A stretch of 64,000 nucleotides of DNA from Prorocentrum cordatum (Eukaryota): contig CAUYUJ010000148.1 of the NCBI GenBank assembly GCA_963575745.1, positions 1-64,000 of the forward strand. Reading direction: 5' to 3'. Positions 3,528-64,000 of this stretch are shown piece after piece (within the stretch, counting starts at the first letter, position 1; every line of letters starts with the position of its first letter). The translations under genes and the position numbers were made by a program. A model generated the notes under the pieces. The model was not told the origin of the DNA and made no database searches. It worked only from the letters and a program-made list of their open reading frames with translations.

Positions 3528-3621
3528 TCCCTGGTTGGTGCCGTACGTTATTGGTTACCTCCATTTTTGCTGCAGGTGTTGCAGTAGCAGGGTCTGGTGT
3601 GCCAAGGACCGAGAGGACCTG

Positions 3622-3770
3622 GAGGGGGAGGAGGAGGAGGAGGAGGAGGAGGAGGAGGAGGAGGAGGAGAAGGAGGAGTAGGAGGAGGAGGAGGAGGAGG
3701 AGCAGCAGCAGCAGTGGCAACAGGAGGGGGAGAGAAAGAGATAGAGAGAGAGAGAGAGCGAGAGGATGAG
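3622..3770. repeat. (GAG)n / (CAG)n / (GA)n microsatellite
   Basis: Direct reading. Confidence 0.9.
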
Positions 3771-12343: not shown

Positions 12344-15029
12344 CAAAACGGTCCTGATGCCAGCATCTTTACTGTAGCAACCCAACCGCGCGGCGTGGAG
12401 GCACGCAACGCACATGTCCGAAGTGCCTGCGAGGGGGGAAGCGTAAGAACCTCCTCCACCTCCTCGACGCCCTCCTGCTCTTGCCCGTAGTTCCCGTGTT
12501 GCCAGCGTCGTTGCTCTCCTCGCCGACTGCGCTTCCAGAAACCGCCCGCCTTCCACACCCGCCGCGGCCTGGATGAAACGCGCGACTTCCAGACTCTCGA
12601 GGAAGGGCCACAGCGATGCCACTTGGAAAGCCTCGACGTGTCCCATAGTTGGGCCGACCGTTCGCGAGGCAACGAGTCGCACAGACGCGCGACCACTTTG
12701 GGGTACGCTCTCCAGTCCGAGGGGCCCAAGGGAGCCCCGAGAGGACCCCAAGAGCGCCCAAGAGCGCCCCAAAAACGCCCCAAGAGGGCCCCCAAGACGC
12801 CCTGCCTGAGCTTCCGAAGAGGGACCATAACTTCCCAGCCCCGCCATTCTGAGCGACGGGGCCCAAGATCGCTCCAAGGGGCCTGCAAGACTCCCACTTT
12901 GCAGGCTCTTTGCAGGCCCCCCTCCACTCTCTGCAAGGACCCTGGAACGACCCTGCGAAACGGGGACCTCTCTCGTGTTGGTTATGGAACCTTCAGCCCC
13001 ACTGTTCAAAAAAAGGGGTGTGTGTGTGTGTGACATGCAGTCCCCCCACCACTGAAAACTCAAAATTCGTGCCGCGATAATTATCCTCTTCCTCCTCGTG
13101 TTCCTCCTCCTCCTCCGCCTCCTTTTCCCTTTTGCCTCCTGCCCCTCCTCTTCCTCCTCCTTTTCCTTCTCCTCCTCCTCCTCCCCGGCCAGCGCATCAG
13201 GCTCCTTCAAATCCGTCCAGAAACCCCACAAGGACCAAAGGAAACTGGAGGATCAATGGGGTATGTGTTACATGAGTCAGTAATGGTCCCATTGCTTCCC
13301 CGCCACTAATGCGCTTCCGCGGCGGCCCGTTCCACTTCATGTTGCTACACCGTCGTCATTCTAGCAACCCCCGTCGCAATTTATTTCGGGATGGGCTTGT
13401 GGATATACTTTTCGACCGCGAGCGACACAGGCAACTGCGCGCCGTGTAAGAACTCGGATTTGTCGAGGTATGTTTGTTTGGTATGCGGGCCCGCGAAGCA
13501 AGTCGAAAACCGTCCGAACACGAGTCGGGCCGCGACTTAGCAGCAGGAAAAGAAAGGCAACCGAAGCGAACGCGCGCGGGCAACCACTCAGAAGAATAAC
13601 TAAAAACGAAACTCCCAGACCGGTGGCGTGGAGATCCCGTTGGCGAGCAGCAAGTAAGCGCAGCCAAAATGGCGCGGCGGCGCGACCATAAACACGCAGA
13701 GGTCAACCACTCGGTGTGAGTCGGCACAAGGCACCGTCAAAGACGAGCATACAGGACGAACTGGCACACCCGGGCGACGTCCGTGCCGTAGGCGACACAA
13801 CTGCACCGTGTCATCGCAAGAGTGACTTGTGGAGACACGCGGCGAAAACAAATGTCTGGGGCAGCGGACACGGCTGATTAGCTACAAGACGCGCCGCAAA
13901 CCGGCCGGCCCACTCACCAAGCAGCCGCGGGGTACTTGTGGAGATACGCGAAGCGTCAGGAATTGTCACGTGATCGGGCCGACCGCTCGTGAGGCTGCGA
14001 GTCGCACTGAAGCGGGACCACTTCGGGATACATTGTCAGGTCCAGGGGTGCAAGTGTGACCGGTGAACAAACATGTGGTTGTACGCGTGGCCCCACCGAT
14101 GCCCTGACAGTGACGCTACTAGCGACCTCCCTGATGGCCCCTACTGCGAGGCCACTTACACGATGGGGGCCGCCCGAAAAGAGCACGTCGAGTGACGAGC
14201 CAGGAGGACAACGCCCGTCGTGTTTTTTTTTTGTGTGTGTGTGTGCGTGGCTGCACGTGCGCTTCTGTCCTAAATTGCCACCCCTTGCTGTCCCGCCTTT
14301 GCCGCCGCCGCTGCGCCTCGCCTTGTCTCCCCTGCCTTTTAGGCACTTGCCGTACGGCACATCCCCTTCCTCCTCCTCCTCCTCCTCCTCCTCCTCTTCC
14401 TCCTCCTCCTCCTCGTCCTCCTTTTTCCCCCTCCTCCTCCTCCTCCTCCTCCTCCCCCCTCTCCTCCTCCTCTTCCTCTTCCTCATCTTCCTCCTTCTCC
14501 ACCTCCTGGCCGCAGGCCTCCCCCCCCCCACATGCCTACCCAGGGCCTGCGCATGACACACTTGATCTGTTCGGGTGGGTCCAAGCCTCTGGTTTCTGAG
14601 TGGTGGGCCGGCCGCGCACGCTTTCGGCGCCCCGTTCCTCGACCTTCTAGGCCTCGACGCTGCGTGTGAGGCCGCGAAACCAAAAAGTAAGTTGTGTGTT
14701 TTGTGTGTTGTTGTTTGTGTGTGCTTTGTTCGTGGGTGTGAATATTTGTGTGTGCGTGTCTGCGTGCGTGCGTGCGTCGACACGTCTGGGGGCCTAAAGC
14801 GACCCCGCCCCTCCAGCGAAATCCGCCTCCCTCCCCGCCCGCCCGCACCTCCAAAACCTAGATCTTCAAACTGTTTGCACTTCGCGCTGCGCGCTGCGCG
14901 CAACGCGATGATCGGTCCCAACGCGGGGCGCGATGACCTGAGTCGGGTGCTGCTAGAACTGCCTTTGGCCTGAGGCCCCCCCAGGAGCTCCAAGCAGGCC
15001 CCCGCGGCCCCCAAAACACGCCTCTGGAG

Positions 15030-27444: not shown

Positions 27445-29439
27445 AATGCCAACGTCCCAATCTGCGCTGATGATTCCAATCCGCCCCCGCATGATATTCC
27501 CAGATGCGCGAAGGCAGCGCCGAGACGCACCGACGCGACACTGATATATCCCAGTATGATAGAAAGGGCGCTGGCCGCAGGGGGCAAAGCCCTTACGGAT
27601 AATGTTACGATGGAATTGGCTCCAAACATGTTGTGGTAACTCTGAAGCTTCTGGCGGCCCTAAGACATTCCTGGAAAATGTGGGACGCATCGTTACCATT
27701 GATTCTCTCTCTTCTGAGTGAAAGGAACGGAAGCAGAGGTGGAAGGATAGGCATAATGAATCAACATCGGATCGGAACGTGTGCCAAATCAGGCTGCATC
27801 GGCACGGAATCGAAATCGAATATGATCGGCTGCGCCAGGATGCGCAGCAACGCCGTGCGAGCGTTGGGCCGCATCGGATCTCGGGAACATCTGAATTGGA
27901 TCGGAATGGGACGGCTAGAACCGATATCGAATCGGATCGATCGGACCCTCTGGTCGATCCGATTAGATATCTGTTCCCAACCCCTTCCCCTGCTCGTGCT
28001 CCCCTGCTCGTCGCTCGTCCTACTCCGCCTCCTCATCACCTACTCGTCCTTGCCCTGCTCGTCCTCATCCTGCTCGTCCTTATCCTGGCATCCGATGAGA
28101 TATCGATCCTTTCCCTGATCGTCCTCCCCCTCCCCCCAAGGTCCCCAGGGTGAGGCGGACGACGAGCAGGGGAAGCGGAGGCCCTCTCGCCCCCCCCCCC
28201 CTCCCCCCCGACTGCCGGAGGAAGCTCCTCCGAAGCGCCGCATCAAGCTCCTGGCCCCTCTCGAGGGAGCGGACCGCGGCCGCGTCCGCGACCTCGGCGG
28301 CACGACGGGCGAAACCGCCCCCCTCCCCCCCACTCCATCCTCCTCGCGCCTCCTCCTCGTAGGGGAACAATTTTTACGTCGCAGCGCGGCAGGGGCAGGC
28401 GCTAATCCTCACAGGGGAGCAAACAATAACATAAACATACGAACTCTGAGGTCCGCGCGGATTCCTTGGATCGGCGCTGGAGGCCCCCTGGCGGCGCTTC
28501 CGGCGCCGCACCTGGCGCGCTCCTCGCGCCATGGAGGGGGGTCCAGTGTCGATCCAAGAATTTCGCGCGGCCCTTAATGTTCATGTCATTGCTTGATCCC
28601 CGATCTCAATGGAACAGAAGTCACCAGCATAAGCATGACTTCCTGAGGCACGAGTGATGGCATGCTGCGACTGGCTCAGGATACGTGCCATCGGCGGCGA
28701 GCGAGGCGGGGAAGTAAGAATGAGAATGCCATCTCAGAAGGCGGAGGAGCTTCGCAGAAGCCCTGACGCCTTCTGAGAGATTTGTTGTCTTCGGGGAAGG
28801 CTTAGACAACTTTTCAAGACGCCAGGGGACTTCCGAACCGTCTTGGAAGGCCTTCTCCTTATCACGTTCCCCCCGCTTGCCGCCCATACCAAGAAGTCTG
28901 ACGCATCTAGCGGCCATCGGCACTTGCCGCAGGCAGCTGGACAACGGTGGCAACCTGCCGCAGGCAACTGGACGACGGTATAAGATGACCTTACAGGCCA
29001 TCTACGCAGGTCATCCAAATCCGCGCACCCGCGATGCGCGACGATCCTCGCGACCGCGCGCCGCCCTTTTCTGCAGATGGGCAGCCGCTCTGGCCCAGGC
29101 CGCGGATCGCGCGATGATCATCGCGCCCTCATGGGTAACTTGCGCCATCGCGGACGCCTGTCTCGGGCTGGCTCGTCCTCCTCCTCCCCCCCCTCTCCTC
29201 CTCCTCCTCCACCTCCACCTCCTCCTCTTCCTCCTCCTCCTCCTCCTCCTCCTTCTCCTCCTCCTCCTCCTCCTCCTCCTCGTCCCCCTCCTCCTCCTCA
29301 TCCTCCTCCTCCTCCCCCTCCTCCTCCTCATCATCCTCCTCCTCCTACTCCGGCCCAGACTGCGGCGCGCAGTTCTCTTCGCTCCCTGGCGGGTAACATG
29401 CGCCATCGTGGACGCCCATCTCGGGGGGGAAGACAAGGA

Positions 29440-32835: not shown

Positions 32836-34530
32836 CGAAAGGGGCGGGGTACACGTCGGGTACGTCGTCGCGCCCCGCCAGCAGAGTCAGGAAGGCAAGG
32901 GCCGCTGAACCCCCTGCCTGCCTCCGGGCGGAGGTGTCTGAACGTCCCGGGGCTATCAGAAGGAATTCCAACTGCGGCCTCCGCGCACATCGCTCCCCCT
33001 ATCAGAGTATCTCGCCTGGTCACTATGTTCACCATTCCCCCCCGTCCTTTGCCCTCCCACCCCCCGTTTTTCCTCTACCTGCCGCCCTCCATCTCCCTGA
33101 GCGTTTCCTACTTGCCCCTGGCCCCTGAGTGGCGGCAAACGCCCGCGCCCCCCCGCAGCTGAAAGACTCACCTTGCGCTCATGCTCCAATCCACTCGCGA
33201 GGCGCAAGCCTTGGTTCCAGACTGACAATGGCAAGAGACGCCGAGGCCCCGGCAAATCCAACAGGCGCGATCGGCCCCCTCGAATGGCGGGCGAACCAAT
33301 ACGTAAGACGATGTCGCACAAGTAAATTTGGAATTTCGGGATCCGCGCAAGAAGCTAATCCACTCGCCCAAAGTGTAGTTCTATGCCTGTCCGATCCTCC
33401 TCGTCCCCCTCCTCCTCCTCCCCCTCCCCCCCCCGAGAGGCTCCCAAAAAGCCTCCTCCTCCTCCTCCTCCTCCTCCTCCTCCCCCATCCGTCTTCCTGG
33501 TCCTCTTCTTCCTCCTCCTTGTCCTTCTCCTCCTCCTCCTCCTCCTCCTCCTCCTCCTCCTCCTCCTCCTCCTCCTCCTCCCCCTTGTGTTCTTCGAAGG
33601 CTTTCTACAGCGGGCTGGGGAACATCTAGACCGATAGTTTGGGCAAGCTGTGGCCCAACTTTCGCGACCACAGAGGCGCTTTCCAAAAAGGTAGGGGCGG
33701 GCATAAGACGGGCCAGAAAAGCCCAAGACGGCAACAGAGGCCTTCAAGAAATCTTGAAGGCCGCCAAGAGCCCCAAGGAAGGAGGCTCCCGGGAGGCCTC
33801 CAAAAGACCCTCAGAGAGCTCAGGAGTGACCACAAATGACCCAGGAGGTTCCCAGAAGGTCTCTTTCTCCTGCTCATCCTCCTCCTCCTCATATTCCTCT
33901 TCTACCTGTTCCTCCCTCCCCTCGCTCTCCAATTCCGTCTCCACATTTTCCCCGAAGGCTTTCCAAACCGACTCGTGGAACACATGGTCTGATAGCTTGG
34001 CTAAGCTCTGACCCAAGTTTCGGCCACATAAGCGTTTTGAGAAATCCCTGGGACGGTCAAACAGGTTTCCAAGGACCGCATAATTATCTGGATGTACGGT
34101 AGCTCCGAAGAGGTCTCCAAGAGGCTCCTGAGAAACACCGAGGTTGCACCAATAAGGGCCAAAGAGGCCCAAGAGATGTCCTCCTTCTCCCATTCTTCGT
34201 CTTCCTCCTGTTCCTCCTCCCGCTCCCTCTCCCTCTCACTCTCTCTCATTCTCTCTCTTGCTCGTTCTCGTTCTTTTTCGTTCTCGTTCTCCTCTCTGTC
34301 TCTCTCGCTCTCTCTCTCTCTCTCTCTTTCTCTCTATCCATCTTCATATTCCATCTGCTAATCGTCATCGCGCAGTGGATGATTCATGCTGACCCACATT
34401 GGAAATTTGATGTGGCCATCGAGCGATGAGTCCGCAATGTCACGGCATCTCAGTGAAACTGCATGCACGGCTATGGGCTTGTGAAACGCTCGCGTTGTGA
34501 GCGGGGCTGCTCACGACGCATGGCCGTGAC

Positions 34531-50879: not shown

Positions 50880-50991
50880 GGGGCTCCGCCCAGCGCTGCC
50901 GCATGCCCTGCAGGAGCTCCAGGGCCGCGCGCCACTGCGAGCCCCTCGCGCACGCGGCCGGCAGCGCCGACCACGCGATCCGTCGTGCGCC
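50880..50991 (-). CDS. PPR protein exon (boundaries approximate)
   Basis: The minus frame reads RIAWSALPAACARGSQWRAALELLQGMRQRWAEP, a typical PPR motif. It is not in the ORF track. Confidence 0.7.
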
Positions 50992-52545
50992 CTCGCCCGT
51001 TCGGGGCCCTCTGGCAAGGCCTGCCTCCTCCGGCCTCCCCAGGGAAGAGGGAGGATGCCTCCTCCCCTCGCGTCACCGACCATCACAAGCAATGGTAGGG
51101 ACTGAACGCGTAATGAGCCGTGCTTTAGAGAGTGTCGCGGCGGTTAACGGGAACCAGACTTACTAAACAATCCCAGCGAATGGAAAAGGCGTAACACCAT
51201 CGATTAAACGCAGACGCCGTTGCATGAACACATTATTATTTTAGCTATTCGTAGGTAAAAGTGATAATGATATAAGCAATCACCATGAGCGGATTAAGTT
51301 CACTCCCATGACCTGGGTGCTTCGATGATCTGCTCCTTGTTCCGTTTCTCTTGGTCCTTCATCCTCCCACTCCTCGGCCCCTGCTCGCCTCTCCTCCTCC
51401 TCCTCCTCCTCCTCCATCCTCCTAGCTCCTCCCTGTGCTGCCAGCGATTCGATCGGCCCGAGGGGGAGGAAGAAGACGATCGCGAGGAGAAGGCATTTCT
51501 TCCTCCCTCTGATATGAAGTATGATTGCGCATCGACCCCGAATCTCCTCCCTGTTCATCCTTCCACTCTGACGGCCTCGGGGGCGCTCGGAGGGCCCCGA
51601 CGTACCGAAAACAACGAACCCCCTCAGCCACCGTTTCCTCATGAGCCGTCTGTTGAATAACGACTTATTTGGGCCACCGACCGAGTGAGTGTGCGGAGGA
51701 GGGTCAAAGCAAACAACAATTTGCAAACGCTCTCAGAAATGATCCACCGTTGCGTACGGAACGCGTGAGGTTAAGCTCGCCCCATTTCAACCTTCCCAAG
51801 CCTGAAAGCGAAGCAACGACGATGATGATGCTGCTAATGATGGTGATGATGATGACGGTGGTGATGATGATGACGATTATGATGATGATGCTGATGATGA
51901 TGGTGACGAAGATGATCGTGAATGGTGATGGGGATGGTGGTGGTGGCTGTGATGGTGGTGATGATGATGATAAGAAAGGCGAGGAGGAGGAGGAGGAGGA
52001 AGAGGAGGAGGAACATGAAGAAGAAGAAGAGGGGGAACCGTTTCCTCAGAACCCTCCGGGCGACTCCTCTAGGCCACTGGCAAGAGTCGGGAGATCGGGG
52101 AGGCCCCGGAGCCCCCCGGCGAGATTCTTGAAGACGTAGGCGTGTGCGCCCGCTGCCGCGAGGCACGCCCGCGGCCCTCGTCATTCCTCCCTCCTCCTCA
52201 TCCTGGGCCTCCGCATCCTTTACCTCCTTCTCTTTCTGTCGATTTTCGTGGGGTAAACTTTGAAACTCCTCCTCCTCCCCAACCTCCTCCTCAACCTCCT
52301 CCTCCTCAACCTCCTCCTCATCCTCCTCCTCAACCTTCTTCTCAACCTCCTCCTCCTTCCCTGCGAGTGCGGCCTCTGTCCCTCCTTCCTCCTCCTCCTC
52401 CCTCCTCTTCCTCCTTCCTCTTCCTCCCTCCTCTTTGTCTCCTCCTCGTCCACTTCTTCCTCCTCCTCCTCTTCCTCCTCCCCCCTCCTCCCCTTCCGCT
52501 TCGCCATTCTCACCCCCTTCCTGTCAGGGTTGTTAACGTGCGTGC

Positions 52546-52623
52546 CGCAAGGCGCCCCGCATGGCGCCGAGCTCGGCGGAATCGCGCCGCGCAGCGCGGA
52601 ATAGCTGCAGGCTCGCAGCCCAC
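52546..52623 (-). CDS. PPR protein exon (3' end approximate)
   Basis: ccccAG|G acceptor. (R)WAASLQLFRAARRDSAELGAMRGALR is in phase with exon 60155-60217. Confidence 0.7.
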
Positions 52624-53163
52624 CTGGGGCGGCAACGCGGCACACGCCAGACACACAGACACACAGGACAAGCATAGACACTGACATTGACAACGCTACA
52701 ACCCCCGCCCAAAAACCCCAGCGAGCTGACCTGGCGATCCAGGGGGGGGGGTCCTGGCCAGGCGTGTGCGTGCATGCGTGCATGCGTGCGTGCGTTCGTG
52801 CGTGCCTGCGTCTGTGTGTGTGTTTGTGCGTGTAGTTTGTTAAGATGTAAGCTTTACAATCACAAGTATACCTTAGCTTCCAAGCGTAGTTGTGCTCGTG
52901 GGGGAGTCGCGGGCCAAAAGTTCGGACCCAAAGGCTTGAGCGACACCTCCTGCGAGCAGGAGGTGTCGGCGGGATATTTCACAATGTGTATGGTATGCAT
53001 GCTTGTGTGTGCCTCTTTCAGTTTGATTGCTCCGCTGCCGTTTGTGTGTTCAGGCCTGTTTAGGGGCCTCAATGCCCCCCCGAGTCGCCGCGGCGGCAGA
53101 CCGTGCTTAAACGAGCCTCACTCGGGCGGTACTGGCGAAATGATGCCAGATCTTGGATTTGTC

Positions 53164-54731
53164 TGTATCTCTCGCTGCTGCTGATCTTTCTCATCGTTGA
53201 GTTGAGACTGAGATGGGGGACGGGAGTGCTTGTTTGTCTGAGATGTATATCTGCACTATCGTGTGCATGCGCCAGAGTGGATTTGCTGTAGTCTCTGAAA
53301 CGTTGTACCAGCGGCGCCCTTCATACACCTTCTCTTTCAGATGCAATATCCTTCCTCTACCACGTTCGTACACCATATCCAGTTCAGATGTCAATTGGGC
53401 TCTTCAATGAGCGAGCACTCAGAAGTTGGCTAAACATGAGGCAAACCTTCTCAGACCTCGACTGTCGGCACGGAGATTTGCGGTGTTTGAACCATCGCAC
53501 TTTCTGAGTGATGAAGTACGCGCGCGTGGCCCCCTTTCGTGTGCCCCTTCTGTTTCGACAGACACCTAGTCAGCACGCCCATATCATTATTTGATGCTGG
53601 ATTGCAAAAACTTTGCAAGCGATGATTGATCGACCTAACCCTGCCTTTGTGCAAGCCCTCCGTGAGATCCACGATGTTTATATTCGGCATACGAATGACC
53701 AATCTCCTACCCTCACACCGTTTGGGTGGGAGTTGTTCACGAGTATTGCAGTTGCCTGTTCTTTAATGTCATTACTTTGTGACAATGCACGTGGACGCCA
53801 ATACGTCTGGTGGGTTCTGAGATATGTTAACGTGCTGAGTGGACCACACCGCAAAGCGCTTCTCAGACGAGGTGAGGCTTGCTTCCATGACATCGTTTCT
53901 CGTTGTTCTCTTGTACGGCTACAAACGTCTGCTTTGCATGGCTGACATCCACGAGGCCAAGGCCTGCATAGTCTCATGTACCAGCTTGGCTTCAAAGCGC
54001 ATTACGTGGGACAAACATGTCAATATAGAGGTCTTGGAACCTGTACTGGGTTTGTGAGCCGTTTCCGTGAACATGTTCGAGGCTGGGCTCGGACTCTCAC
54101 GGGCTCCAAAGGACCTCGAGATACGCGGTATCAGATTTTGGTCGGAAAATATGGCCGACGACGTCTTCAGATTCTAGCCATTGACTTTGTTGCCACATCA
54201 AATGTGTTTGCACGTGGGTCTGCATACATCAACCTACACCGTCCTGAAGCTAATACCGTACCTGTCCCTGTTTCACGTCGTCGTCGTCGTCGTCGTCGGG
54301 CCCGCGGGCAGGCCCGAAAACGTCATGATGGACGCGCTGCACGATCGGGAACAAGAGCACTCGACACTTTTCTGGATAACTCGGACACTTGGCACACACG
54401 TATACTCGACCGCCTCGTCTTACAGTATGTATCGCGACAACGGTACCTCGAAGGTCGCTCTCGTCTTCAAACTATCCTACGCTATCAGTTTATGTGTGTC
54501 TACTATATCTACCATCAGGTAATGTGGAAAAAGACACGAACCCTGGGCCGGCCGGCTAGATCTTGACCAACCTGGACATTTACCCCTTTTCGTTAAGTAT
54601 CTGATCCTTCGACTGGAGGAGATTCACTGCATGTATCTCTCGCTGCTGTTAATCTTTCTCATAGTTGAGTTGAGACGGGGACGGGGGACGGGAGTGCAAG
54701 TTTGTCTGAGATGTATATCTTCACAATCGTG
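53164..54731 (+). mobile_element. GIY-YIG endonuclease relic, Penelope-like, bracketed by direct repeats of about 100 bp
   Basis: MYQLG...HYVGQT...RFREH...AYINLHRPEAN in ORF 53976..54566. Repeats at 53164-53263 and 54632-54731. No RT motifs seen. Confidence 0.7.
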
Positions 54732-56149
54732 CGTGTGTGTATGTATGTATGTATGTGCGTGAGTGCGCGTGTGTGTGTAAGGTGTGTGTGTGTGTGTGCG
54801 CGCGTGCGTGTGTGAGTGTATGTGTGCGTTGATGTGTTTATGTGTTTACGTGTATTCGTGCGTGTTCGGGGCAGTTGGGTGCACAAAAAACCCTCAACCC
54901 CTGCCAGGACCCTTGGATCATCAGGTCGGGCGTGGGGATCCTGGCTGGGGATGGGGGTGAATTGTGCTGTCCGCAGACGTACACAGTGACACAAGCGCGC
55001 GCACGTATAGCACGCAACACACTGACGCATCGCACGTGTGCGCGCGCACGCTTGTTCCTCCGACGCTCGGGTAGCGCAACCGCAGCGAATGATAGCATGG
55101 GGCACAATCTTTCGTGAATTGCACCAGGCGTTGCAAGAGGGTGGTTGCGCTAGGCGCGCGGGCGTGCCAAAACAAATGCTCCAAATGGGTGGCCGGGCAG
55201 CGAAACCAGCGCGCGCGGACGCGCAGGGATGCTAAGATCCCAGGCGCGGACAGCAAAATGAATAATGGATCGAAACCGCACAAAAGCGCAAGCACACGCA
55301 CACGCACACGCACACGCACACGCACACGCACACACACACACACACATATAGAGAGAGAGGGAGAGATACACACAAAATATGAGTGACAGCCAGGCGGCGG
55401 GGTCGAGCGACAGCCCTGGGATCGCTTTGAGATATTGATCTCTCTGGCCAGACCCCTTGTAACTTCCTCTTCTGGGCCATCGCAGTTGCGAGAACGCACC
55501 GAACCATTTAAAACTGCAGCACTGACATGTGCGGGCCTCGAGGACCGACAGGATCCGCATCCATCGAAACGACCGGCGCGGCCAGGACATCGAAAGGTGA
55601 GACCCGCACCAAGCAGTGCACGCACAAAATTGTTTGAGGACTCGCCAGACTATCGCAGAAGCGTTGCGGGCGGACTGCAAAGCCGAGGGTAGCAAGAAGG
55701 AGGAAGTATGCAACAATTGCGCTGCGACGTGATACGGCCTCAAAGTCCGACTCCTGCCTGTGCCGGCTATTCACCGTAAGCGCATCCATGTTAGGCCAGG
55801 CGGCGGACGCGAGCGACGTCCTTGAGATCGCTCCTGCATCTCGATCCTTCTGGGTCAGGCCCCGTTTAACTCCCTCTGTTCGGCCATGGCAGCTGCTAGA
55901 GCTCACCGAACCTTTCAAAGCCCGCGCACTCGCGGACCTCGCGGGCCGACAAACGACAGGGCCCGTTCCGGGCGTTAACTTGCAACCGTCGGAACGACCG
56001 GCGCGGCCGCGACAACGGGCGGGGGGGCCCGCGTCAAGCGGCGCGCGCGCAAAATCGTTCGAGTCCACCGCAATCTCTGAATGCCCAAACTCCTCGCGCT
56101 TCTGACTCTGGCCCCCGCAGCGCCGACTCAACCCTGGCCCCCTCGTCGG

Positions 56150-56960
56150 CGGCCTTTGCTAGCGCGGCGGGCCCCGGCCCGAGCGAGACAGGTGCTCGCG
56201 CGGCAGTTGACAGCAGCTCCGTCTTCGAATAAATCGACGCAGCGCGTTGGGAGCTCAAGCGGCCATCGCGCCGGCAAGGTCGCCCGGCCGCAAATATTCA
56301 CGGGCGGCCCCTCCTCGCCGCAGACTGCAGGGCGAGAGGCGGAGATGCTGACGACCAATCTCCCGAAGGCCAGCGCGGAACACCCGATCGAATAGCGCGA
56401 GGGGGCAGGAGCCAGAGGCGCAAGGAGGGGCCAGAGGCGCGGTTGATGGCCCATGCACGGGGGCGCGACGGCCCCATGCATGGGCCATCAACCGCGACGT
56501 TTTCTCTCGGACCATTCTGGCTAGACGTCTTTTTCTCATGGCAGGGGCGCCGCGCCTCGGCCACCGGCCCCAACCTTCATCGCAGCACTCGCGACGCCCA
56601 GAGCCTCGCCCTTGCGCGGGCGGAAATGCAAACCCAGCAAGGATGGCAGCGGCGAGCGCGATCTCGCCTCGGGCGAACGCCCAGCCAGCAAGCGCAGCGC
56701 ACGCCCGGGCAGACGTGGGCGGGGCGCGGGACGGCATTGCCAGGCGGCCCCAGACTGAAAGCAGCCTCCAAGCGCCTGGGGCTTGGCGGCGTGTCTCAAG
56801 CAAATGATACACTCCGCTCAGCGCGTAGTTGCCCTGGCCCTCAGCGGCGCTGCCCGCCCGAGGGCGCTCGAAAAAACTGGAAATTGGTGGCGGCCACATC
56901 GTGGACAAACTGCTGAGCCACACGCGGGCATCGCTTCAGTGCCTGGGCTCCGACCTGCGC
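56150..56960 (-). pseudogene. Tyrosine recombinase, frameshifted
   Basis: RAPP box, GF...RxGE box I remnant, SLRRGGA box II and downstream AASIY. Confidence 0.8.
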
Positions 56961-57029
56961 GTCGCCCAGCCTCCACGGGCCAGCCCTGGCGGCACGCCTG
57001 GCGGCCAGCCCCGCGGTTCACCCGTCGGC

Positions 57030-57500
57030 AAAGCGCGACGGCGATCCCGTTGGGTTCTTGGCTGACGACGCGCTGTTCGCGAGCTTCCAGGCTGAGATGC
57101 TGCGCGCCACCTGGTTGAGCTGCCTGCTGCTGGAACGGCGCCTCGAGAAGGCGACGACGTTGACCGTCCTATCGACGAGGCGCGAGCCTGCGCGCTGCTG
57201 ACGGGCGACCGACCTCGCGCGCCACTGCATCGCCATCAGCGCGCCCTGGCACTCCAGGACATTGATGTGCTGCGCGGCCCCCCCGCGCCAACTGCCCTGC
57301 CTTTCACCGCTGCAAGAAGAGGGCGTCAAACTCCTGCCTGGGGAACGCTTTGGCAAGAACTTCTGAATTCCTTCCGCTTTCAAATCTGCGCCGTTGCGAT
57401 GGCGGGCCGTCGCCGGGCCCGGCGCAATGCTCCGCGACGCGCCTGTGTCGCGCCATTCAGCATGCCCACGCTTCGCAAGCTCAGCGAGCAGCACGTCGGC
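57030..57500 (-). pseudogene. DIRS-type RNase H-like domain
   Basis: QHINVLECQGALMAMQWRAR...LVDRTV...RRSSSRQLNQVAR...KNPTGSPSR. Confidence 0.75.
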
Positions 57501-57879
57501 CTGGCGCGGCAGTTCTGGCGGGCGGCGGCACAGAAGCGGCGCGCCCCGCAGCTCGCCTTGGGCCTCCAGTTGCTGCGGCTGCGACTGAAGCCAGCTGGCG
57601 TCGACCGCCACCGCGTCCTCTCGCGGGCGCCGAGGGGCCACCGCAAACGGGTTGCCCCGGCGCGAGGCGGCCGCCGCCCAGCGTCGGGGGCCGCGGAGAA
57701 CGTGCGCGGACGCGCCGTGCTTCCCCAGCGCCACAAAGCGGCGCTCCGCGAACTCTTCGCGCCCGCGCCGCACCAACGCAGCGCCCCCGGCCCAGTCGGC
57801 GGCTGCCGCCCCAGGAGCGCGCGCTGGCGCGGGGCTCCTCGAGCGGCGGCGCGGCGGCCACCGGGCGCGCGACTGCCGC

Positions 57880-58600
57880 CCAGTGGCTGACCAGCCAAGC
57901 CACCACTTCGCAATGGAAAGATCGACCGATGATTTGCACAAGGCCCCATGCTTGTCGGGCTCCGCCTTGGCCTCGCTGCTCGTCGTGCAGGGCGCCGCGT
58001 GCCCTTTTTGAAAGCCCATCAGCTTCTCGCGAACCCAGGCGCAGGGCAGCCCCACCCGCCCATGGGGCCAGTGCGCGCGCCACTTGCCACGAAACTGGAA
58101 CGGCGAGGCCGCGACGCGAAAGGGCTTGGTTGGGCCGTCGAGCGCTCCCCGATGCCCGCAGGCCTGGGGCGCGGCTGGCCGCGAGGGGTCAAGGGCATGA
58201 GCGCGGGGGGCGGCTCTCCGCCTGGGGCCCCTGGGCAGCGCGCGCCCCGCGTCGCCCGCTCCCCCGAAGGGGGGCGCGGGTCCATGAGCTGCGCGCGCCA
58301 AGCGCTCCGCGCGCCCTCTACCGACCTCGCCATCACGACGGTCGACTCAGCCTCCAAGGTCGGCAGCAGGCCCTGCGACGCCCAGTGGAGGCGCGGCCGC
58401 TTGACCCGGCCGAAGTCGCCCGCCTGATTCACGGGGAACGACTCGAAGAAAACTAAGCGGCTGAGGCAAGGAACGTCCCTCTCCACCATCGACGCTGCGT
58501 TTTCCCAGAAGAAATCGATCCGAGCCTCTGGTAGCTCCGGCTCCAGGCCAGCCGCAGCCCTCAACTGGTGCTGCACCAGGCCGGCCCGCGGATCGGCCAG
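57880..58600 (-). pseudogene. C5 cytosine DNA methyltransferase domain (motifs VI, VIII, IX, X), frameshifted; motifs I and IV not found
   Basis: ENV-like, RxR and GNS-like motifs occur in the correct order across three frames. Confidence 0.75.
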
Positions 58601-59919
58601 CCCCTGGAGAGCAACGTTCAGGACCGCGCGCGGGCCCCGCCTCGGGCGCGTCCGCCACGCCCGCGAACGCCGCGCCCGCGGGCGCGAACAGCACGGGCAA
58701 GCGCGCCGCGGCCGAGTCCTCCGCCAGCCCCCGCGGCCGTGGGCTTGGGTTTGGCCTTGCCCTTGGCGTTCACCGCGCTCTTGGGCGCCATCGCCGAAGC
58801 CGGCCAGGGCAGCGACGAGGGCGGCGATGTGGCGCGCCTGGTCCCGCAGCACCGCCCGCTCCGCCGAATCCTGGTGGCCTTCTGGCGCGCGAGGGCCAGC
58901 AGGTGGCACAGCTCGAACGACCCCAGCAGGACGCCAGACTATGGGAGCGCCAGGGACTCCCCCGGCGCGGGGCGGGCCCCGGACCACCCGCAGCGTCGCG
59001 CGGGCGAGGGCGGATGCGACGGGATGTTCATGCCCACCTCGAGGGCTTAAGGCCAAAGCTCTAAACCACAACAACTGCCGTGCGACATCACACGGCCTCA
59101 ACTCCGACTCTCGCCGAGGGCTCTGTGCAGCTCAACGGGGGACGGAGGAAGACAAAACGCAAAAAGCATACACTTTCGGAAGCCTGCGTGGACATCTTGG
59201 GTCGGAGCTTGCCCACCCTCGCTGGCGCGCTCAAGTGTTCTCCAGACAGTGCTTGCACTTCGGGGTCCTTCCCTGGGTTGCCTAATTACGGTTAGACTTC
59301 GCCGCGTGGGCGGCCGTGGACGCCTCGTGTCCGCCCCGCGCGCTGGGCGGGTGTGGCGAGGTCTCGCCTGAGGGCGGCCGTGAGCACCACATAGCTGACG
59401 CCACATGATTCACGCACTTCACATGTACTGCACCCGGTAGCTCACACCACATAGCCACACATAGCGCACCGCACAGATTGTGCCACATAGGCTACTCGTG
59501 CACAGCGCAATACCTCACTGTTTGGCGCCGGCGCTGGCAGACGTCGTATAATTGCGCAACGTGCTTCGTGACGGTCCCCCTTCCTCCAGACTGGCGTTTT
59601 ATCACGAGTCCTCATTTGACGGCCGCGATGCCTGGTGGGGGCAACCGGAGGCCGAAACTGGCGAAAAACCTTCCGCCATGTGCTTTTCACGACGCGAGGG
59701 GATCTGGGGCCCCTGGGCATAGAGGCCTCTCGGATGGGGTCGGAGCAGACGGGGTCGGGGGATCGCGCCGCATGGTCGATGCCTCACCGATGCACCGGCG
59801 ATGCCACTGCGACGTCGGCGTGGAGAGCATCGGGTTCCGCATCGAGCCGCGTCGCCGAGGCATCGGCCGGGTGGGGGCGATCCTCCGACGCCACCTGCTC
59901 GGACCCCCTCTGGGGAGAA

Positions 59920-60110
59920 CAAGGAGGGGGAGGAGGAGGAGGAGGAGGACGAGGAGGAGGAGGAGGAGGAGGAGGAGGCGAAGGAGGAGGAGGCGGAGAA
60001 GGAGGAGGAGGAGGAGGAGGAGGAGGAGAGGAGGAGGAGGAGGAGGAGGAGGAGGAGGAGGAGGAGGAGGAGGAGGAGTAGGAGGAGGAGGAGGAGAAGG
60101 AGGAGGCGAA
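59920..60110. repeat. (GAG)n microsatellite
   Basis: Direct reading. Confidence 0.95.
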
Positions 60111-60154
60111 GGGGGTCCGAAGGAGCAGCCCCCCGACAGGGCGCCCACGGCCGC

Positions 60155-60217
60155 CTCCCGCCCCGCTCCGTGGCCAAGATCGCCGTGCCCAGCAGCACCG
60201 CGCCGGCGGACGCCGGC
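60155..60217 (-). CDS. PPR protein exon (63 nt)
   Basis: AG|G acceptor and AG|GC donor. Reads PASAGAVLLGTAILATERGG, and the phase matches both neighbouring exons. Confidence 0.7.
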
Positions 60218-61563
60218 CTCCCGCCACGATCGCGCGGCCCGCCCGGGCCCCGCACGGGCCGGGTCGGACGAGCCGGTGGGAAGGGGCGCGTCGCTTCCTG
60301 TCGGCGACGAGCCCGCGGGGAAGTCGGGTGGGCAGGCCCCCTCAGAAGCTTCTCAGAAGCCCTCACGCCTTCTCCGAGAAGCCGTCTGCAGCTCCGGAGA
60401 AGGCCTGCGAGGCTCCTGAGACGGCGCGGGGGCTTCTGAGAAGCCCCGCCGCCTTCTGCGAGGGTAGGTCACGACGTCAGGTTTGGGCTCGCTTTCGGTC
60501 TCAGGGGGGCCTCCCCAGGCACTAGGACAGTCAAAACAGGGTTCGGGATGAAACAAGTGTGCCCTGGGGAAAGCGTCTGCACTTCTGGGGGCGCGGTACT
60601 GAAACCAGACCGTCAGACGTCTGGAAACGGGTCTGGGGGAAATAACCAGCCTCGAACTTGTCCCTATCCCCAAGATCGGCAATGACAGTCCTAGGGATGT
60701 GCGCTCAGAAACTGAGAGAGTCGCTAGGATCGGTACCGAGGAAAGTGATGCCAAACAAAGGGATAAGGATATGTATCAAGCTGGTCCTGGATGTTGCTTC
60801 ACCGTTTTCGGGCCCCTGGGGCCCTTTTCTCTGTCACCGAACGCGACTCGGGTCGGGACGAGGAAGAGGAGGAGGAGGGACAGGAGGAGGAGGATGAGGA
60901 GGAGGAGGAGGCGGAGGAAGAGCTGGTCCTGGGGAAAGCCTCAGGGCCCAGGACCCATGATTTTTTTTGGTTTCTCTCTCTCTCTCTCTCTACCCGGCGC
61001 CAGGTGCGCACCTGGTATGTCGAGGGGAGTGGTGGGCTTGTTCTCCACAGCCACAACCACGAGTGGGAGGGGGAGGGGGCCTCCTCCCCCTCTCCTTCCT
61101 CCTCCCCATGATCCTCCGCCTCCTTCCCCCCCTCCGACCTCTGGTGGTGGTGCTGGACCACCGGCCCCTCAGACACCGCTCGGCGGCGGGGCCGAGCCCG
61201 GCCGCCGCGGCGGTCTTCGCCCCGAGCGGTCCTCGCCCTCTGGCCCTTGCTCGGGTCGCAGCGGTCGGGCCTCTGGCGGCCAGCCCGGGGCGCTCCCGGG
61301 CACCCCGTGCGGAGCGCTCTTTTGCGGCCCAGGCGCAGCTGCCGGAGAGCACCCCGGGGCTGGGAAGCCGCCGAGGACCGACCGCGAGCGCCCGAGAAAG
61401 CCTCGAGCACGGCACTCGAACGGGAGATCTTCTGCCGAATGGACTTACCCTGGGATTATTTGCTTCGGCGACTCTACAACAAACACACAGAATGTTCGCA
61501 TATCGACTGGATGTTGAACCAAATCCATGGCGCCTCCCAATTCGTCCGACCCGGATGGGATGC

Positions 61564-62450: not shown

Positions 62451-63661
62451 CTGGGCTGTCTGGCGGCGCGCATGGGGGGAGGCCTAGCGCGAGGGGAGAG
62501 CGCCACGCGACGACAGAGGGCAAGATTCAAGGGGCCCAGGGAGACGCAAATCCGCCGACCCTTCGGCGTTTGTGAGATGTTGCCGTCGTCTTCGTCGTCG
62601 CCGTCGTCGTCGTGGTCGTCAGTCCCGAGAAAGCTGAGGAACGTTACGGGGAAAAGAAACGTCGTAGTTAAAACGATTCCCCCCCCCTCCTTTCCTTCCC
62701 TGAAAGGGGGCGGGGCACGGCGGGGGGGTAAAGAGGGGGGCGTCCCAGGTCACGTTATCGCCCCGCGAGGGTCCCGGCGGGTCCCCGGGGGTGCTTCCAC
62801 CCGTTGGACAAGAGGGACTGCAAGAACAGGTTCCCCCTGTGGGGGCCAGCCCCGGCCCCGGTCCTGGCCCGGAGGGCCCCAGTCCTGGCCTCAGGTCGGG
62901 CGTCCTCCTGCAGGTGGATTCTGACAGGAAAGTTAGAAATACCCCAAATTAATCCAAAAAAGGCCAGACATGCTAGAAAGATTGTCCCCTGACTATTTTT
63001 TCATATATTTGTGAATATTTCTCCGGTAGAGGGACGTGCCCGACTTCATCCTGGCTCCGGCCGTGACCCCGGCCGTGGCCCCGGCCATGACCCCAGCTCC
63101 AGCCCTGGCCTCGGCCCCAGGGTCCTGCAGGGGGGGTTCCAAGAGAGGTCCCGCCTTTCGGGTCGGCAGCACCAGCCGCAATGCCTTCACAACAGATTTC
63201 CACAGACCGCAAGATGCCTTCTGTTCTGAAATATCATCTGGATGTTCCTCTCCCCTTCCAGTTCCCATATACCCACATCCGTGGGAATCCACGTTCAGCT
63301 CTGTCTGTGCCTATTTCTCCCTCCTACGAGATGTCTATCAATTTCAACTGCGTCTTGGAGTTTACAGCTCCCTGCCCATAAACAAGGTGTGCAGTGGGCA
63401 CATGCTTTCCCCATAACAACTTCAACTCGGTCTACTGGCGCCCCTTACCAGAACGTCCAACACGCTATGGAACTGGAGACCACTCTTGTACGCAGACGTT
63501 TTGGAGGCGGGGGCGTCCCCTGCAGGAAGCAGAAAAAAGGCTTTCACTGAATGGCCCAAGGGGCTCAACAAAAAAGGGCTTTTGAAAAGCGGACTCCGCG
63601 GACCCCCCCCCGCGTTCTCAGGAGGCGCCCCCACTGGCGCCGCCCCCCTTGGGCGCGCCGC

Positions 63662-63935
63662 CACGCTGTATGCCGCGAAGCTCCATGTCTTCTACCAGTA
63701 CCAGCGCCTCCTTCCAGCGCGGTTCCTCCAGGAGAGAATCGATGCAGCACGCGCTCGCCGCGCTGGCGAACGTGATGGCGTCGCGCTCCACGCCGCTGCG
63801 AACGGCCACTGCGAGGAAGCTCAGCGCGCCGCGCCACTCCGAAGCTTCGCTGCAGGCGCTGATGATGGCGTTCTGCATGACGCGGTCTGGCAGCAGGCCG
63901 GCCTGTCGCGTCACCTGCTCGAAAGCCTGAGCAGC
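63662..63935 (-). CDS. PPR protein exon (3' end approximate; the gene continues beyond the window)
   Basis: ccaAG|G acceptor. AAQAFEQVTRQAGLLPDRVMQNAIISACSEASEWRGALSFL...RDAITFASAASAC...WKEALVLVEDMELRG contains two PPR motifs. Confidence 0.85.
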
Positions 63936-64000
63936 CTTGGCACGGGGGAAACCGGAGTTTCACGTTCGATCGGGCATGCCCCCCTACAGGCGAATTTTGG

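What the first reader, a model, noticed from the sequence alone, without database searches (positions are those of the whole stretch)
55437..59112. YR retroelement carrying a C5 DNA methyltransferase, RT-less, inside a PPR intron
Seen: on the minus strand, a MAPK..AKGKAK ORF start (about 58790) is followed by DNMT motifs VI, VIII, IX and X, a DIRS-type RNase H and a tyrosine recombinase, all frameshifted. No RT motifs and no DNMT motif I or IV were found, and only about 280 bp separate the ORF start from motif VI. Established: DIRS-group retrotransposons that captured cytosine methyltransferases are known from dinoflagellates. Inference: this is an internally deleted, non-autonomous derivative of such a family.
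Basis: partly seen in the sequence, partly recalled or inferred. Interest (0 to 1): 0.8.

Follow-up and report, generated by a model that had tools for sequence, protein, structure and literature searches.

The report
Dead methyltransferase-carrying retrotransposon copy, dinoflagellate
This is a decayed, internally deleted copy of a dinoflagellate jumping gene that normally carries its own DNA-methylating enzyme; the copy is ordinary genomic debris, but its family has an extra enzyme-like domain that the searched papers do not mention.

Summary
On the minus strand, 59122-55389 is one element bounded by split direct repeats (A1 - coding - B1 - A2 - B2).

**What the coding part keeps**
- a broken small 5' ORF;
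- the back half of a Dnmt3-type cytosine methyltransferase, starting just after motif IV and running through motifs VI, VIII, IX and X;
- the larger part of an RNase H;
- a tyrosine recombinase.

These parts carry about 11-12 frame changes and 2 stops.

**What is missing.** A profile built from 15 relatives finds nothing for the reverse transcriptase or methyltransferase motifs I-IV anywhere in the 64 kb. Longer relatives have them. They come from Prorocentrum cordatum (the likely source organism), Fugacium and metagenomes, at about 50% identity. So this copy has an internal deletion of roughly 3.7 kb.

**Limits**
- Pfam's own models do not hit the window's reading frames. Identity rests on the family profile and on the relatives.
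- Whether other copies share the deletion could not be tested, because no genome is held.
- "Inside a PPR intron" is plausible but not shown.
- The "MAPK" ATG is not a conserved ORF start.

The kind is known (SymbioDIRS-Dnmt3, 2018). DUF4326, the small 5' ORF and the host genus are modest additions. Interest is low to moderate.

The parts
55389..59122 (-). Whole element: a decayed, internally deleted tyrosine-recombinase retrotransposon with the layout A1 - coding - B1 - A2 - B2
   Evidence: Repeats. Family-profile hits. Frameshift-aware alignments. GC is 0.695, against 0.56 and 0.64 in the flanks.
59069..59122 (-). A1, the 5' copy of the split direct repeat
   Evidence: 59110-59069 matches 55753-55711 at 35 of 42 positions. 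A looser alignment extends this to 59122 and 55768. None of 300 dinucleotide shuffles reaches the score.
58760..59022 (-). Remnant of a small conserved 5' ORF (CxxC...CxxC in relatives), broken by 1 stop (58939) and 1 frameshift (58865)
   Evidence: Aligns to P0169 aa 58-147 (z 15.5), P0170 (z 15.3) and P0171 (z 12.3), and to P0011 aa 1-93 (z 12.6). It has no Pfam family.
58628..58759 (-). Junction zone holding the deletion breakpoint. Relatives carry a gag-like region, RT, RNase H strand 1 and DNMT motifs I-IV here. The MAPKS ATG at 58791 opens an ORF in another frame that crosses this zone.
   Evidence: The family profile starts at position 708 at 58627. Aligning this zone to DNMT motifs I-IV is not significant (z 2.1 and 1.5).
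57892..58627 (-). Dnmt3-type C5 DNA methyltransferase, from just after motif IV through motif X. Motif VI is ENV changed to ENA, and motif X is GNS changed to GRS. Motifs I and IV are absent.
   Evidence: Family-profile positions 708-863 (E 2e-29) and 845 onward (E 3.6e-38). Identity to P0152 is 296 of 553 over 58627-56962. The family profile hits DNMT3A/3B at E about 1e-27. Pfam DNA_methylase is found in 11 of 15 relatives.
57465..57700 (-). Decayed DUF4326 domain (SRRGNPFAV ... ADVLLAELAKRG)
   Evidence: Pfam DUF4326 at E 0.0085 on ORF 57018-58346 aa 227-287, which is 57668-57486. Relatives reach E 6.4e-17 in P0002, and 7 of 15 carry it. Alignment.
57030..57330 (-). RNase H from about strand 3 and helix A onward (HINVLE, LVDR, RSSS; NPAD changed to NPTG). 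The first strand (DAS..GG in relatives) was lost with the deletion.
   Evidence: Alignment to P0152. The model of relative P0125 matches RNase H chains at Z up to 8.6, rmsd 3.2, 98 residues aligned, model 141-243 against chain 28-128.
56209..57000 (-). Tyrosine recombinase remnant. The first Arg (RKGE) is kept, YSLRRGGAT is now CSLRRGGAA, GRW is now GRL, and the Tyr codon is kept (IY). It is broken by 6 frame changes.
   Evidence: 139 of 278 positions identical to P0002 over 57068-56209. A profile of 40 relatives hits XerD (E 2.3e-4) and Cre. Pfam Phage_integrase is found in 17 of 40 (best 6.1e-11).
55795..56081 (-). B1 repeat
   Evidence: 202 of 262 ungapped columns identical to B2. Score 123 against a shuffle maximum of 28.
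55711..55768 (-). A2, the internal copy of the A repeat
55389..55660 (-). B2, the 3' terminal repeat. It abuts a (CA)n tract at 55281-55346.
   Evidence: Both B copies end in the same CGCCGCCTGGC.

Best explanation
Window 59122-55389 (minus strand) is a dead copy of a DIRS-order tyrosine-recombinase retrotransposon with split direct repeats, in a Prorocentrum cordatum-like dinoflagellate genome.

**The intact family, read from relatives**
- a small 5' ORF and a gag-like region;
- a Pol made of a divergent reverse transcriptase, the first strand of RNase H, a Dnmt3-type cytosine methyltransferase, a DUF4326 domain in one subfamily, the rest of RNase H, and a tyrosine recombinase.

**How intact elements most likely work.** This is inferred from the family and from de Mendoza 2018, and is not shown here. 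The RNA is reverse-transcribed. The A and B repeats let a complete, probably circular, cDNA form. The Dnmt3 domain methylates that cDNA at CG. The recombinase inserts it without target-site duplication.

**This copy.** It lost about 3.7 kb, covering the gag-like region, RT, RNase H strand 1 and DNMT motifs I-IV. The loss lies between the end of the small ORF (58760) and the residue after motif IV (58627). The copy has since gathered about 11-12 frame changes, 2 stops inside the Pol remnant, and substitutions in catalytic motifs. It can encode nothing functional.

**Shown:** anatomy, homology, the deletion relative to relatives, and the decay.

**Inferred:** the mechanism of the intact family, and that the deletion is a secondary loss.
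For: **Source organism and annotation.** P0001 (752 aa, annotated in P. cordatum) is a chimeric gene model of this very locus.

**Family size.** Relative P0002 has 9771 representative hits at E up to 1e-3.

**Domains in relatives**
- Pfam DNA_methylase in 10 of 18 and DUF4326 in 6 of 18 proteins scanned.
- In alignment A1: DNA_methylase 11 of 15, DUF4326 7 of 15, RVT_1 3 of 15 (best E 0.012), Phage_integrase 2 of 15.
- The A1 profile hits DNMT3A/3B at E about 1e-27.
- The RT region of P0008 lies nearest to Atlas clusters carrying RVT_1 (score 0.93, 171 shared features).
- The recombinase profile hits XerD at 2.3e-4 and Cre, and Phage_integrase is found in 17 of 40.
- RNase H fold at Z 8.6.

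**This copy**
- The profile matches only 58627-56273, from position 708 onward.
- The 5' ORF match is significant.
- The A and B repeats are significant.

**Assembly check.** Short contigs of two public runs reproduce 57946-58228 without a difference. That stretch includes the frame change near 58128. These runs may be the assembly's own data.

**Names of relatives:** P. cordatum, Fugacium kawagutii, and unnamed ENA records.
Against: - Pfam's curated models do not recognise the window's own ORFs, so every domain call for this copy goes through about 50%-identical relatives.
- The relatives are automatic gene models that may merge or skip ORFs. P0003, for example, lacks motif IX.
- The RT assignment in relatives rests on weak Pfam hits, motifs read by eye and one Atlas lead.
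- The A1/A2 repeat is short (42-54 bp).
- No second copy is in the window and no genome is held. The size and the exact breakpoint of the deletion are therefore known only relative to diverged relatives.
Confidence: 0.85

Rival explanations
1. This is a member of a propagating non-autonomous subfamily. The deletion happened first, and the short element was then copied in trans by full-length relatives, so other copies share the junction between 58760 and 58627.
For: Both ends needed for the DIRS-type cycle (A1 and B1-A2-B2) are kept while the middle is lost. Diverged related contigs pile up on conserved parts of the element in two runs, with depth 23-30 at 56652-56695 and 57208-57249.
Against: No copy with the same junction was found. 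A search with the 5' region among shorter proteins gave only 3 small-ORF proteins. The window holds no second copy. The piled-up contigs are short and cover only conserved motifs. A one-off deletion at this locus explains the data equally well.
Confidence: 0.3
2. This is a composite of two unrelated fragments. A 5'-truncated element (DNMT to recombinase to B-A-B) happens to lie next to a separate fragment carrying the small ORF.
For: 5' truncation is common among decayed retroelements. The junction zone 58759-58628 has no significant homology.
Against: A1 at the far 5' end matches A2 inside the 3' repeat block (0 of 300 shuffles reach the score). Both parts have the same strand and order as in P0011, where the small-ORF sequence precedes the Pol in one gene model.
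Confidence: 0.07
3. This is a naturally RT-less tyrosine-recombinase DNA transposon (Crypton-like), or a domesticated host gene, as the annotation P0001 would suggest.
For: P0001 is deposited as a protein. No RT is present in the window.
Against: About 11-12 frame changes and 2 stops break the coding part. P0001 reaches its length only by splicing across frames and adding distant PPR-like exons. The closest relatives carry an RT-like region upstream of the same DNMT. Split direct repeats are a retroelement feature.
Confidence: 0.04

Closest known systems
SymbioDIRS-Dnmt3 (de Mendoza et al. 2018, PMC5890265; passages read, and 3 supplementary text files searched)
   Same: Both are DIRS-like retrotransposons of dinoflagellates. 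Both carry a Dnmt3-type C5 methyltransferase inside Pol, a tyrosine recombinase, and the A - coding - B - A - B repeat layout.
   Different: - The host genus is Prorocentrum. The word does not occur in that paper or its held supplements.
- This subfamily has a DUF4326 domain between DNMT and RNase H. It is not named in that paper's legend, nor in the held supplements.
- In the gene models here the recombinase follows in the same frame as Pol. That paper reports a separate ORF. Gene models may mislead on this point.
- The window copy lacks RT and DNMT motifs I-IV.
- No tree was built, so clade membership is untested.
PAT-like / Ngaro / DIRS1 tyrosine-recombinase retrotransposons (Goodwin and Poulter 2004, seen only as a reference in PMC5890265; details recalled)
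   Same: They share a tyrosine recombinase in place of a DDE integrase, RT plus RNase H in Pol, split direct repeats (A1..B1A2B2), and no target-site duplication.
   Different: DIRS1 and PAT-like elements carry a Dam-like adenine methyltransferase, according to the passage. They do not carry a C5 Dnmt3, and they have no DUF4326.
Crypton DNA transposons (recalled)
   Same: They have a related type of tyrosine recombinase and no RT.
   Different: Cryptons have no RT by nature, and no RNase H or split repeats. Here the RT is absent through deletion.
Earlier scan note e1-7627974 (same genome, another piece)
   Same: It describes a tyrosine-recombinase retrotransposon with cytosine-methyltransferase-like domains in this genome, and names SymbioDIRS-Dnmt3 as closest known.
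   Different: That element is a 15.6-kb, young, single-ORF copy with two DNMT-like domains. This one is 3.7 kb, old and deleted. Their relationship was not tested.

Membership tests
DIRS-order tyrosine-recombinase retrotransposon | Reverse transcriptase in Pol | tested here: not met
   It is absent from this copy and from the whole window. It is present in relatives only as a divergent RT-like region: Pfam RVT_1 in 3 of 15 (best E 0.012) and an Atlas lead. The copy is filed as a deleted derivative, not as an intact member.
DIRS-order tyrosine-recombinase retrotransposon | Tyrosine recombinase (R..K..HxxR..W/H..Y) | tested here: met
   A remnant lies at 57000-56209 and aligns to P0002 (139 of 278 identical). 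The family profile hits XerD and Cre, and Pfam Phage_integrase is found in 17 of 40. Pfam does not hit the window ORFs themselves.
DIRS-order tyrosine-recombinase retrotransposon | RNase H domain | tested here: met
   The C-terminal three quarters are present. The fold was tested in relative P0125: Z 8.6, rmsd 3.2, 98 residues aligned. Foldseek alone gave no E of 1e-3 or better. The first strand is missing in this copy.
DIRS-order tyrosine-recombinase retrotransposon | Split direct repeats A1 .. B1 A2 B2 (or ITR plus ICR) | tested here: met
   B1/B2 are 77% identical and A1/A2 are 83% identical over 42 bp.
DIRS-order tyrosine-recombinase retrotransposon | No target-site duplication | tested here: inconclusive
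   No direct repeat was seen by eye at the two borders. In so old a copy this carries little weight.
SymbioDIRS-Dnmt3 | Dnmt3-type methyltransferase inside Pol | tested here: met
   The best solved matches of the family profile are DNMT3A/3B/3C at E 1e-27 to 1e-25, ahead of DRM2, bacterial enzymes and DNMT1. The window keeps only motifs VI-X.
SymbioDIRS-Dnmt3 | Falls in the same clade by RT or DNMT phylogeny | not tested
   No tree was built, and no SymbioDIRS-Dnmt3 reference sequence was at hand. P0084 from Fugacium kawagutii is a relative at about 29% identity.
SymbioDIRS-Dnmt3 | Recombinase in a separate ORF | tested here: inconclusive
   Gene models P0002 and P0003 run from RNase H into the recombinase in one frame. 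Many relatives are stand-alone recombinases of about 315 aa.
C-5 cytosine DNA methyltransferase (PF00145) | Motif I (FxGxG, SAM binding) and motif IV (PCQ, catalytic Cys) | tested here: not met
   The profile match starts two residues after motif IV. Aligning the upstream zone to motifs I-IV is not significant (z 2.1 and 1.5). There is no Pfam hit.
C-5 cytosine DNA methyltransferase (PF00145) | Motifs VI (ENV), VIII (RxR), IX and X | tested here: met
   All are present in degenerate form (ENA; RPR; REKLMGF; GRSF), as shown.
DUF4326 (PF14216) | Match to the Pfam model above its cutoff | tested here: not met
   The window ORF scores 17.2 bits against a cutoff of 25. Relatives pass, with 62.4 bits in P0002. 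The window region aligns to theirs, so it is a decayed copy of the domain.

The most novel reading that the evidence does not exclude
The family behind this dead copy may be an undescribed lineage of DNMT-bearing tyrosine-recombinase retrotransposons, found in Prorocentrum and in unnamed environmental records. Three features set it apart:
- A two-part module, Dnmt3 plus a DUF4326 domain, sits inside the RNase H fold, between its first strand and the rest. Others predict DUF4326 to be a rhodanese-phosphatase-type enzyme tied to ADP-ribose and DNA-modification systems.
- A conserved small CxxC..CxxC ORF opens the element.
- DUF4326 would be a second nucleic-acid-modifying accessory activity carried by a retrotransposon. 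It may act on the cDNA together with the methyltransferase.
Probability: 0.45. Interest if true: 0.55.

Novelty: new variant of a known kind. Interest (0 to 1): 0.3.

Why it matters
**The copy itself does not matter much.** It is one more decayed transposon in a repeat-rich dinoflagellate genome, and it has misled an annotation. P0001 fuses transposon frames to PPR-like exons.

**The family-level points are of some use:**
- DNMT-carrying DIRS-like elements, described from Symbiodiniaceae in 2018, also occur in Prorocentrum. That bears on the paper's open question of whether these elements predate the unusual dinoflagellate methylome.
- One subfamily adds DUF4326, a domain so far discussed for phages and giant viruses.
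- The methyltransferase appears to be inserted within the RNase H fold rather than beside it.

These points come from relatives, not from this locus. They need a genome-wide study.

Tried and rejected
- **Whole-genome search:** no genome is held for this window.
- **Second copy in the window:** blastn of 54501-60500 against the window gave only low-complexity matches.
- **Single-sequence searches against solved structures:** the window's DNMT piece and P0002 both gave only chance-level rows, with E above 1.
- **Reading 58868-58640 as decayed DNMT motifs I-IV** (FGGAGGA as FDGIGGG, GPRAV as FPCQV): rejected. Scores are z 2.1 and 1.5 against shuffles, while the same DNA matches the small 5' ORF at z 12-15.
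- **First decay count against P0003:** set aside for 58139-57930, because P0003 lacks motif IX. It was redone against P0152 and P0002.
- **Public runs:**
  - 2 coded runs were listed, holding 0.08 and 0.07 of the words. No RNA holder was listed.
  - The contigs are short and none spans the junction, so the breakpoint question stayed open.
  - One joint (58031 to 58140) appears in a single diverged contig and was not interpreted.
- **Search for shorter proteins sharing the 5' region:** it returned 3 small-ORF proteins, none with the deletion junction.
- **Plus-strand ORFs inside the element:** 0 of 14 had a Pfam hit.
- **Long ORFs elsewhere in the window:** of 33 scanned, only one low-complexity hit turned up.
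- **Small 5' ORF:** no Pfam family and no usable Atlas lead (best 0.88).
- **PPR context:** the upstream PPR ORF resembles only one downstream place, and weakly (E 0.014). P0001's C-terminal exons get no Pfam PPR hit.

Full report
**Setting.** The window is GC-rich eukaryotic DNA (GC 0.54-0.71 in 2-kb steps). The best protein match of the largest minus-strand ORF in the finding is P0001, an "unnamed protein product" of Prorocentrum cordatum (91% identity over 99% of the query). tblastn maps P0001 aa 7-606 onto 58718-56678 in shifting frames. Its tail maps onto short pieces at 52625, 50946, 48790 and further down the minus strand. P0001 is therefore a chimeric automatic gene model of this locus, and the window comes from P. 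cordatum or something very close to it. No whole genome is held. The window has no second copy of the element.

**Observation.**
- DNMT motif VI: FFWENAASM, 58513-58487.
- DNMT motif VIII: VKRPRLHWAS, 58405-58376.
- DNMT motif IX: REKLMGFQKGH, 58031-57999.
- DNMT motif X: IGRSFHCEVVAWL, in another frame, 57930-57892.
- RNase H: HINVLECQGAL, 57269-57237.
- Recombinase: RPRKGEALG, CSLRRGGAA and GRLSSQRAASIYS between 56622 and 56226.
- The ATG of MAPKSAV is at 58791, 286 bp before the Glu codon of motif VI.

Pfam's curated models do not see any of this. Of 16 minus-strand stop-to-stop ORFs scanned at E up to 1, none hits DNA_methylase, Phage_integrase or RVT. One gives a sub-threshold DUF4326 match (E 0.0085, 17.2 bits against a cutoff of 25). 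That is why the relatives matter.

**Relatives.**
- P0002 (707 aa, P. cordatum, 46% identical) is an intact relative. It carries motifs IX-X, a Pfam-significant DUF4326 (E 6.4e-17), the RNase H motifs and a complete recombinase.
- Searched against 1.84 billion representatives, P0002 has 9771 hits at E up to 1e-3, and 338 at up to 1e-30.
- I scanned 18 of these hits. DNA_methylase is found in 10 and DUF4326 in 6, each above Pfam's cutoff. Five have no family at E up to 0.01.
- The long members and P0152 (1407 aa) share one order: an RT-like region, then VTASDAS..GG, DNMT motifs I-X, optionally DUF4326, then W.WK...HIN.LE / HLLDS / RSSS / NPAD, then the recombinase (sequences, consensus). The RT-like motifs are LNG.FGV.K, RLI.NLIP.N, S..D....FY.F..P, MGW.SAVGV.QH and Y.DN/YLDD.
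- Names where given: P0003, P0006, P0007, P0011 and P0038 are from P. cordatum, and P0084 is from Fugacium kawagutii. P0008, P0041, P0013 and P0022 are unnamed ENA records.

**What the domains are.**
- *Methyltransferase.* A profile of 15 members (A1) hits solved DNMT3A, 3B and 3C at E 1e-27 to 1e-25 over profile positions 616-806. DRM2 follows (1e-23), then bacterial enzymes and DNMT1. It is a Dnmt3-type enzyme.
- *Recombinase.* A profile of 40 stand-alone relatives of about 315 aa (A2) hits XerD over nearly its whole length (E 2.3e-4) and Cre (3e-3 and up). Pfam Phage_integrase is found in 17 of 40 at E up to 1 (best 6.1e-11).
- *RNase H.* Pfam gives no RNase H hit in any of the 15 A1 members, so I folded relative P0125 (243 aa, mean pLDDT 76).
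  - Foldseek finds no match at E 1e-3 or better, but nearly all of its top rows are RNase H domains.
  - The VIA second look gives Z up to 8.6 (3hst_D, rmsd 3.2, 98 residues aligned), and all 50 rows shown are RNase H.
  - The tool warns that Z near 8 can be a common arrangement. The uniformity of the list and the catalytic motifs make RNase H the sensible reading.
  - The aligned part is model 141-243 against chain residues 28-128. The first 27 or so residues of the RNase H fold are missing from this part. In the family, a DAS..GG strand typical of retroelement RNase H sits just upstream of DNMT motif I.
  - My inference is that the DNMT (plus DUF4326) lies inside the RNase H fold.
- *Reverse transcriptase.* This is the weakest assignment. 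RVT_1 is found in 3 of 15 (best E 0.012). An Atlas lead points to RVT_1-bearing clusters (0.93, 171 shared features). The motifs were read by eye. de Mendoza et al. say the DIRS RT of Symbiodinium aligns poorly with Pfam (passage).

**This copy against the family.** I built an HMM from A1 (1464 positions) and ran it against every six-frame ORF of 15 residues or more in the window.
- All meaningful hits lie on the minus strand between 58627 and 56273:

| Profile positions | E-value |
|---|---|
| 708-863 | 2e-29 |
| 845-1153 | 3.6e-38 |
| 937-987 (another frame) | 7.5e-08 |
| 1219-1296 | 4e-21 |
| 1370-1409 | 1.7e-05 |

- A sixth piece of the same stretch (positions 1158-1197, 57005-56883) has E 0.19. 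Every hit outside 58627-56273 has E of 0.9 or more.
- Motif I is at positions 628-634 and motif IV (GFPCQG) at 701-706. The copy therefore begins two residues after motif IV.
- Nothing in 64 kb matches positions 1-707. tblastn with 10 long relatives agrees.
- Frameshift-aware alignment gives 296 of 553 identical residues to P0152 over 58627-56962, and 139 of 278 to P0002 over 57068-56209.
- That alignment shows frame changes near 58128, 57943, 57792, 57367, 57282, 57010/56882, 56626, 56535, 56390, 56262 and 56227, and stops at 57304 and 57018.
- Catalytic motifs have drifted: ENV to ENA, GNS to GRS, NPAD to NPTG, YSLRR to CSLRR, and GRW to GRL.
- Contigs of two public runs reproduce 57946-58228, 55582-55820 and 55942-56092 without a difference. 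At least the frame change near 58128 is therefore not peculiar to this assembly, though those runs may be its source.

**The 5' end and the deletion.**
- Upstream of the DNMT remnant, 58956-58695 aligns to P0011 aa 1-93 (z 12.6 against 30 shuffles).
- A search with that region among shorter proteins returned three small proteins of 88-147 aa. Two are from ENA. One carries a EukProt label of a green alga, which I did not pursue.
- The window's 59022-58760 aligns to P0169 aa 58-147, right up to that protein's end (z 15.5), with one stop and one frameshift.
- In relatives this small ORF has CGWC and CELC pairs. It has no Pfam family and no Atlas lead.
- A rival reading takes the same DNA as decayed DNMT motifs I-IV. 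It scores no better than shuffles (z 2.1 and 1.5) and is rejected.
- In P0011 the small-ORF sequence is followed by about 1,225 residues before the point where the window resumes. These are the gag-like region, RT, the DAS strand and DNMT motifs I-IV.
- In the window only about 130 bp lie between (58759-58628). That amounts to an internal deletion of roughly 3.7 kb, measured on a relative only 45-59% identical.
- The MAPKS ATG sits in a third frame across the end of the small ORF. Only P0001 uses it.

**Ends.**
- B1 (56081-55795) and B2 (55660-55389) are direct repeats, with 202 of 262 ungapped columns identical. The score is 123 against a shuffle maximum of 28.
- Between them lies A2 (55768-55711). 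It matches A1 at the far 5' end (59122-59069) at 35 of 42 positions in the core. None of 300 shuffles reaches that score.
- Read on the minus strand, the order is A1 - coding - B1 - A2 - B2. This is the layout given for SymbioDIRS-Dnmt3 (legend passage).
- Both B copies end in the same 11 bases, and no target duplication is visible.
- The 23% divergence between B1 and B2 and the heavy coding decay point to an old insertion.

**Surroundings.**
- The plus strand of the element has no Pfam match (0 of 14 ORFs).
- On the minus strand, a PPR_2 match lies upstream at 63621-63959 (E 6.1e-08, above cutoff). It is the only PPR hit among the 118 flanking ORFs scanned.
- Downstream, P0001's exons look PPR-like by eye but get no Pfam hit. 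They resemble the upstream ORF only weakly.
- The element may therefore lie in an intron of a PPR gene or between two genes. This was not decided.

**Comparison and novelty.**
- The kind is in print: SymbioDIRS-Dnmt3 (PMC5890265).
- No paper in the library holds Prorocentrum, DIRS, methyltransferase and retrotransposon together. In the 15 listed of the 166 papers holding three of the terms, the Prorocentrum count is 0.
- DUF4326 occurs in 9 papers, none about retrotransposons by title or abstract. I read passages in two of them. They predict a rhodanese-phosphatase-type enzyme fused to ADP-ribose-processing, replication and restriction-modification components in phages and giant viruses.
- The 2018 paper's text and its three held supplementary files mention neither DUF4326 nor Prorocentrum. 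Its figures are not held.
I did not test it.

**Verdict.** The locus itself is ordinary debris. The family shows a modest new variant of a known kind.

Noticed in passing
window 58760-59022 (minus); relatives P0169, P0170, P0171: A conserved small ORF (88-147 aa in relatives, with CGWC and CELC pairs) opens the element. It has no Pfam family and no useful Atlas neighbour. The relatives come from short assembled contigs, which may be transcripts. One carries a green-alga label in EukProt.
   Followed up: partly
relatives P0003, P0008, P0013, P0084 and others: In the family, the Dnmt3 domain (plus DUF4326 in a subfamily) appears to sit inside the RNase H fold. A DAS..GG strand lies before DNMT motif I and the rest of RNase H lies after it. 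Many members have YxDN instead of YxDD in the RT-like motif C.
   Followed up: partly
window 52545-52625, 50881-50946, 48533-48790 and further down (minus); P0001: The deposited protein P0001 is a chimera. Transposon frames are stitched across frameshifts and then joined to distant PPR-like exons.
   Followed up: partly
window 63621-63959 (minus): An ORF with a Pfam PPR_2 match above cutoff (E 6.1e-08). It is the only PPR hit among the 118 flanking minus-strand ORFs scanned.
   Followed up: partly
window 53946-54566 (plus): A 206-aa open frame with a GIY-YIG-like look (..YVGQT..RFREH..) followed by an Arg run. Pfam gives no hit at E up to 0.01.
   Followed up: partly
window 59912-60128, 43900-45000, 29170-29360, 14360-14510, 33395-33590, 52266-52500, 3600-3775: Long purine/pyrimidine-biased low-complexity tracts (GAG/GGA-type, translating as poly-E, poly-R or poly-G) recur across the window and match each other at 75-90%. 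The 44-46 kb stretch has GC skew -0.79.
   Followed up: no
window 56438-56496: A 28-nt near-perfect palindrome (93% complementary, 3-nt loop) lies inside the recombinase remnant.
   Followed up: no
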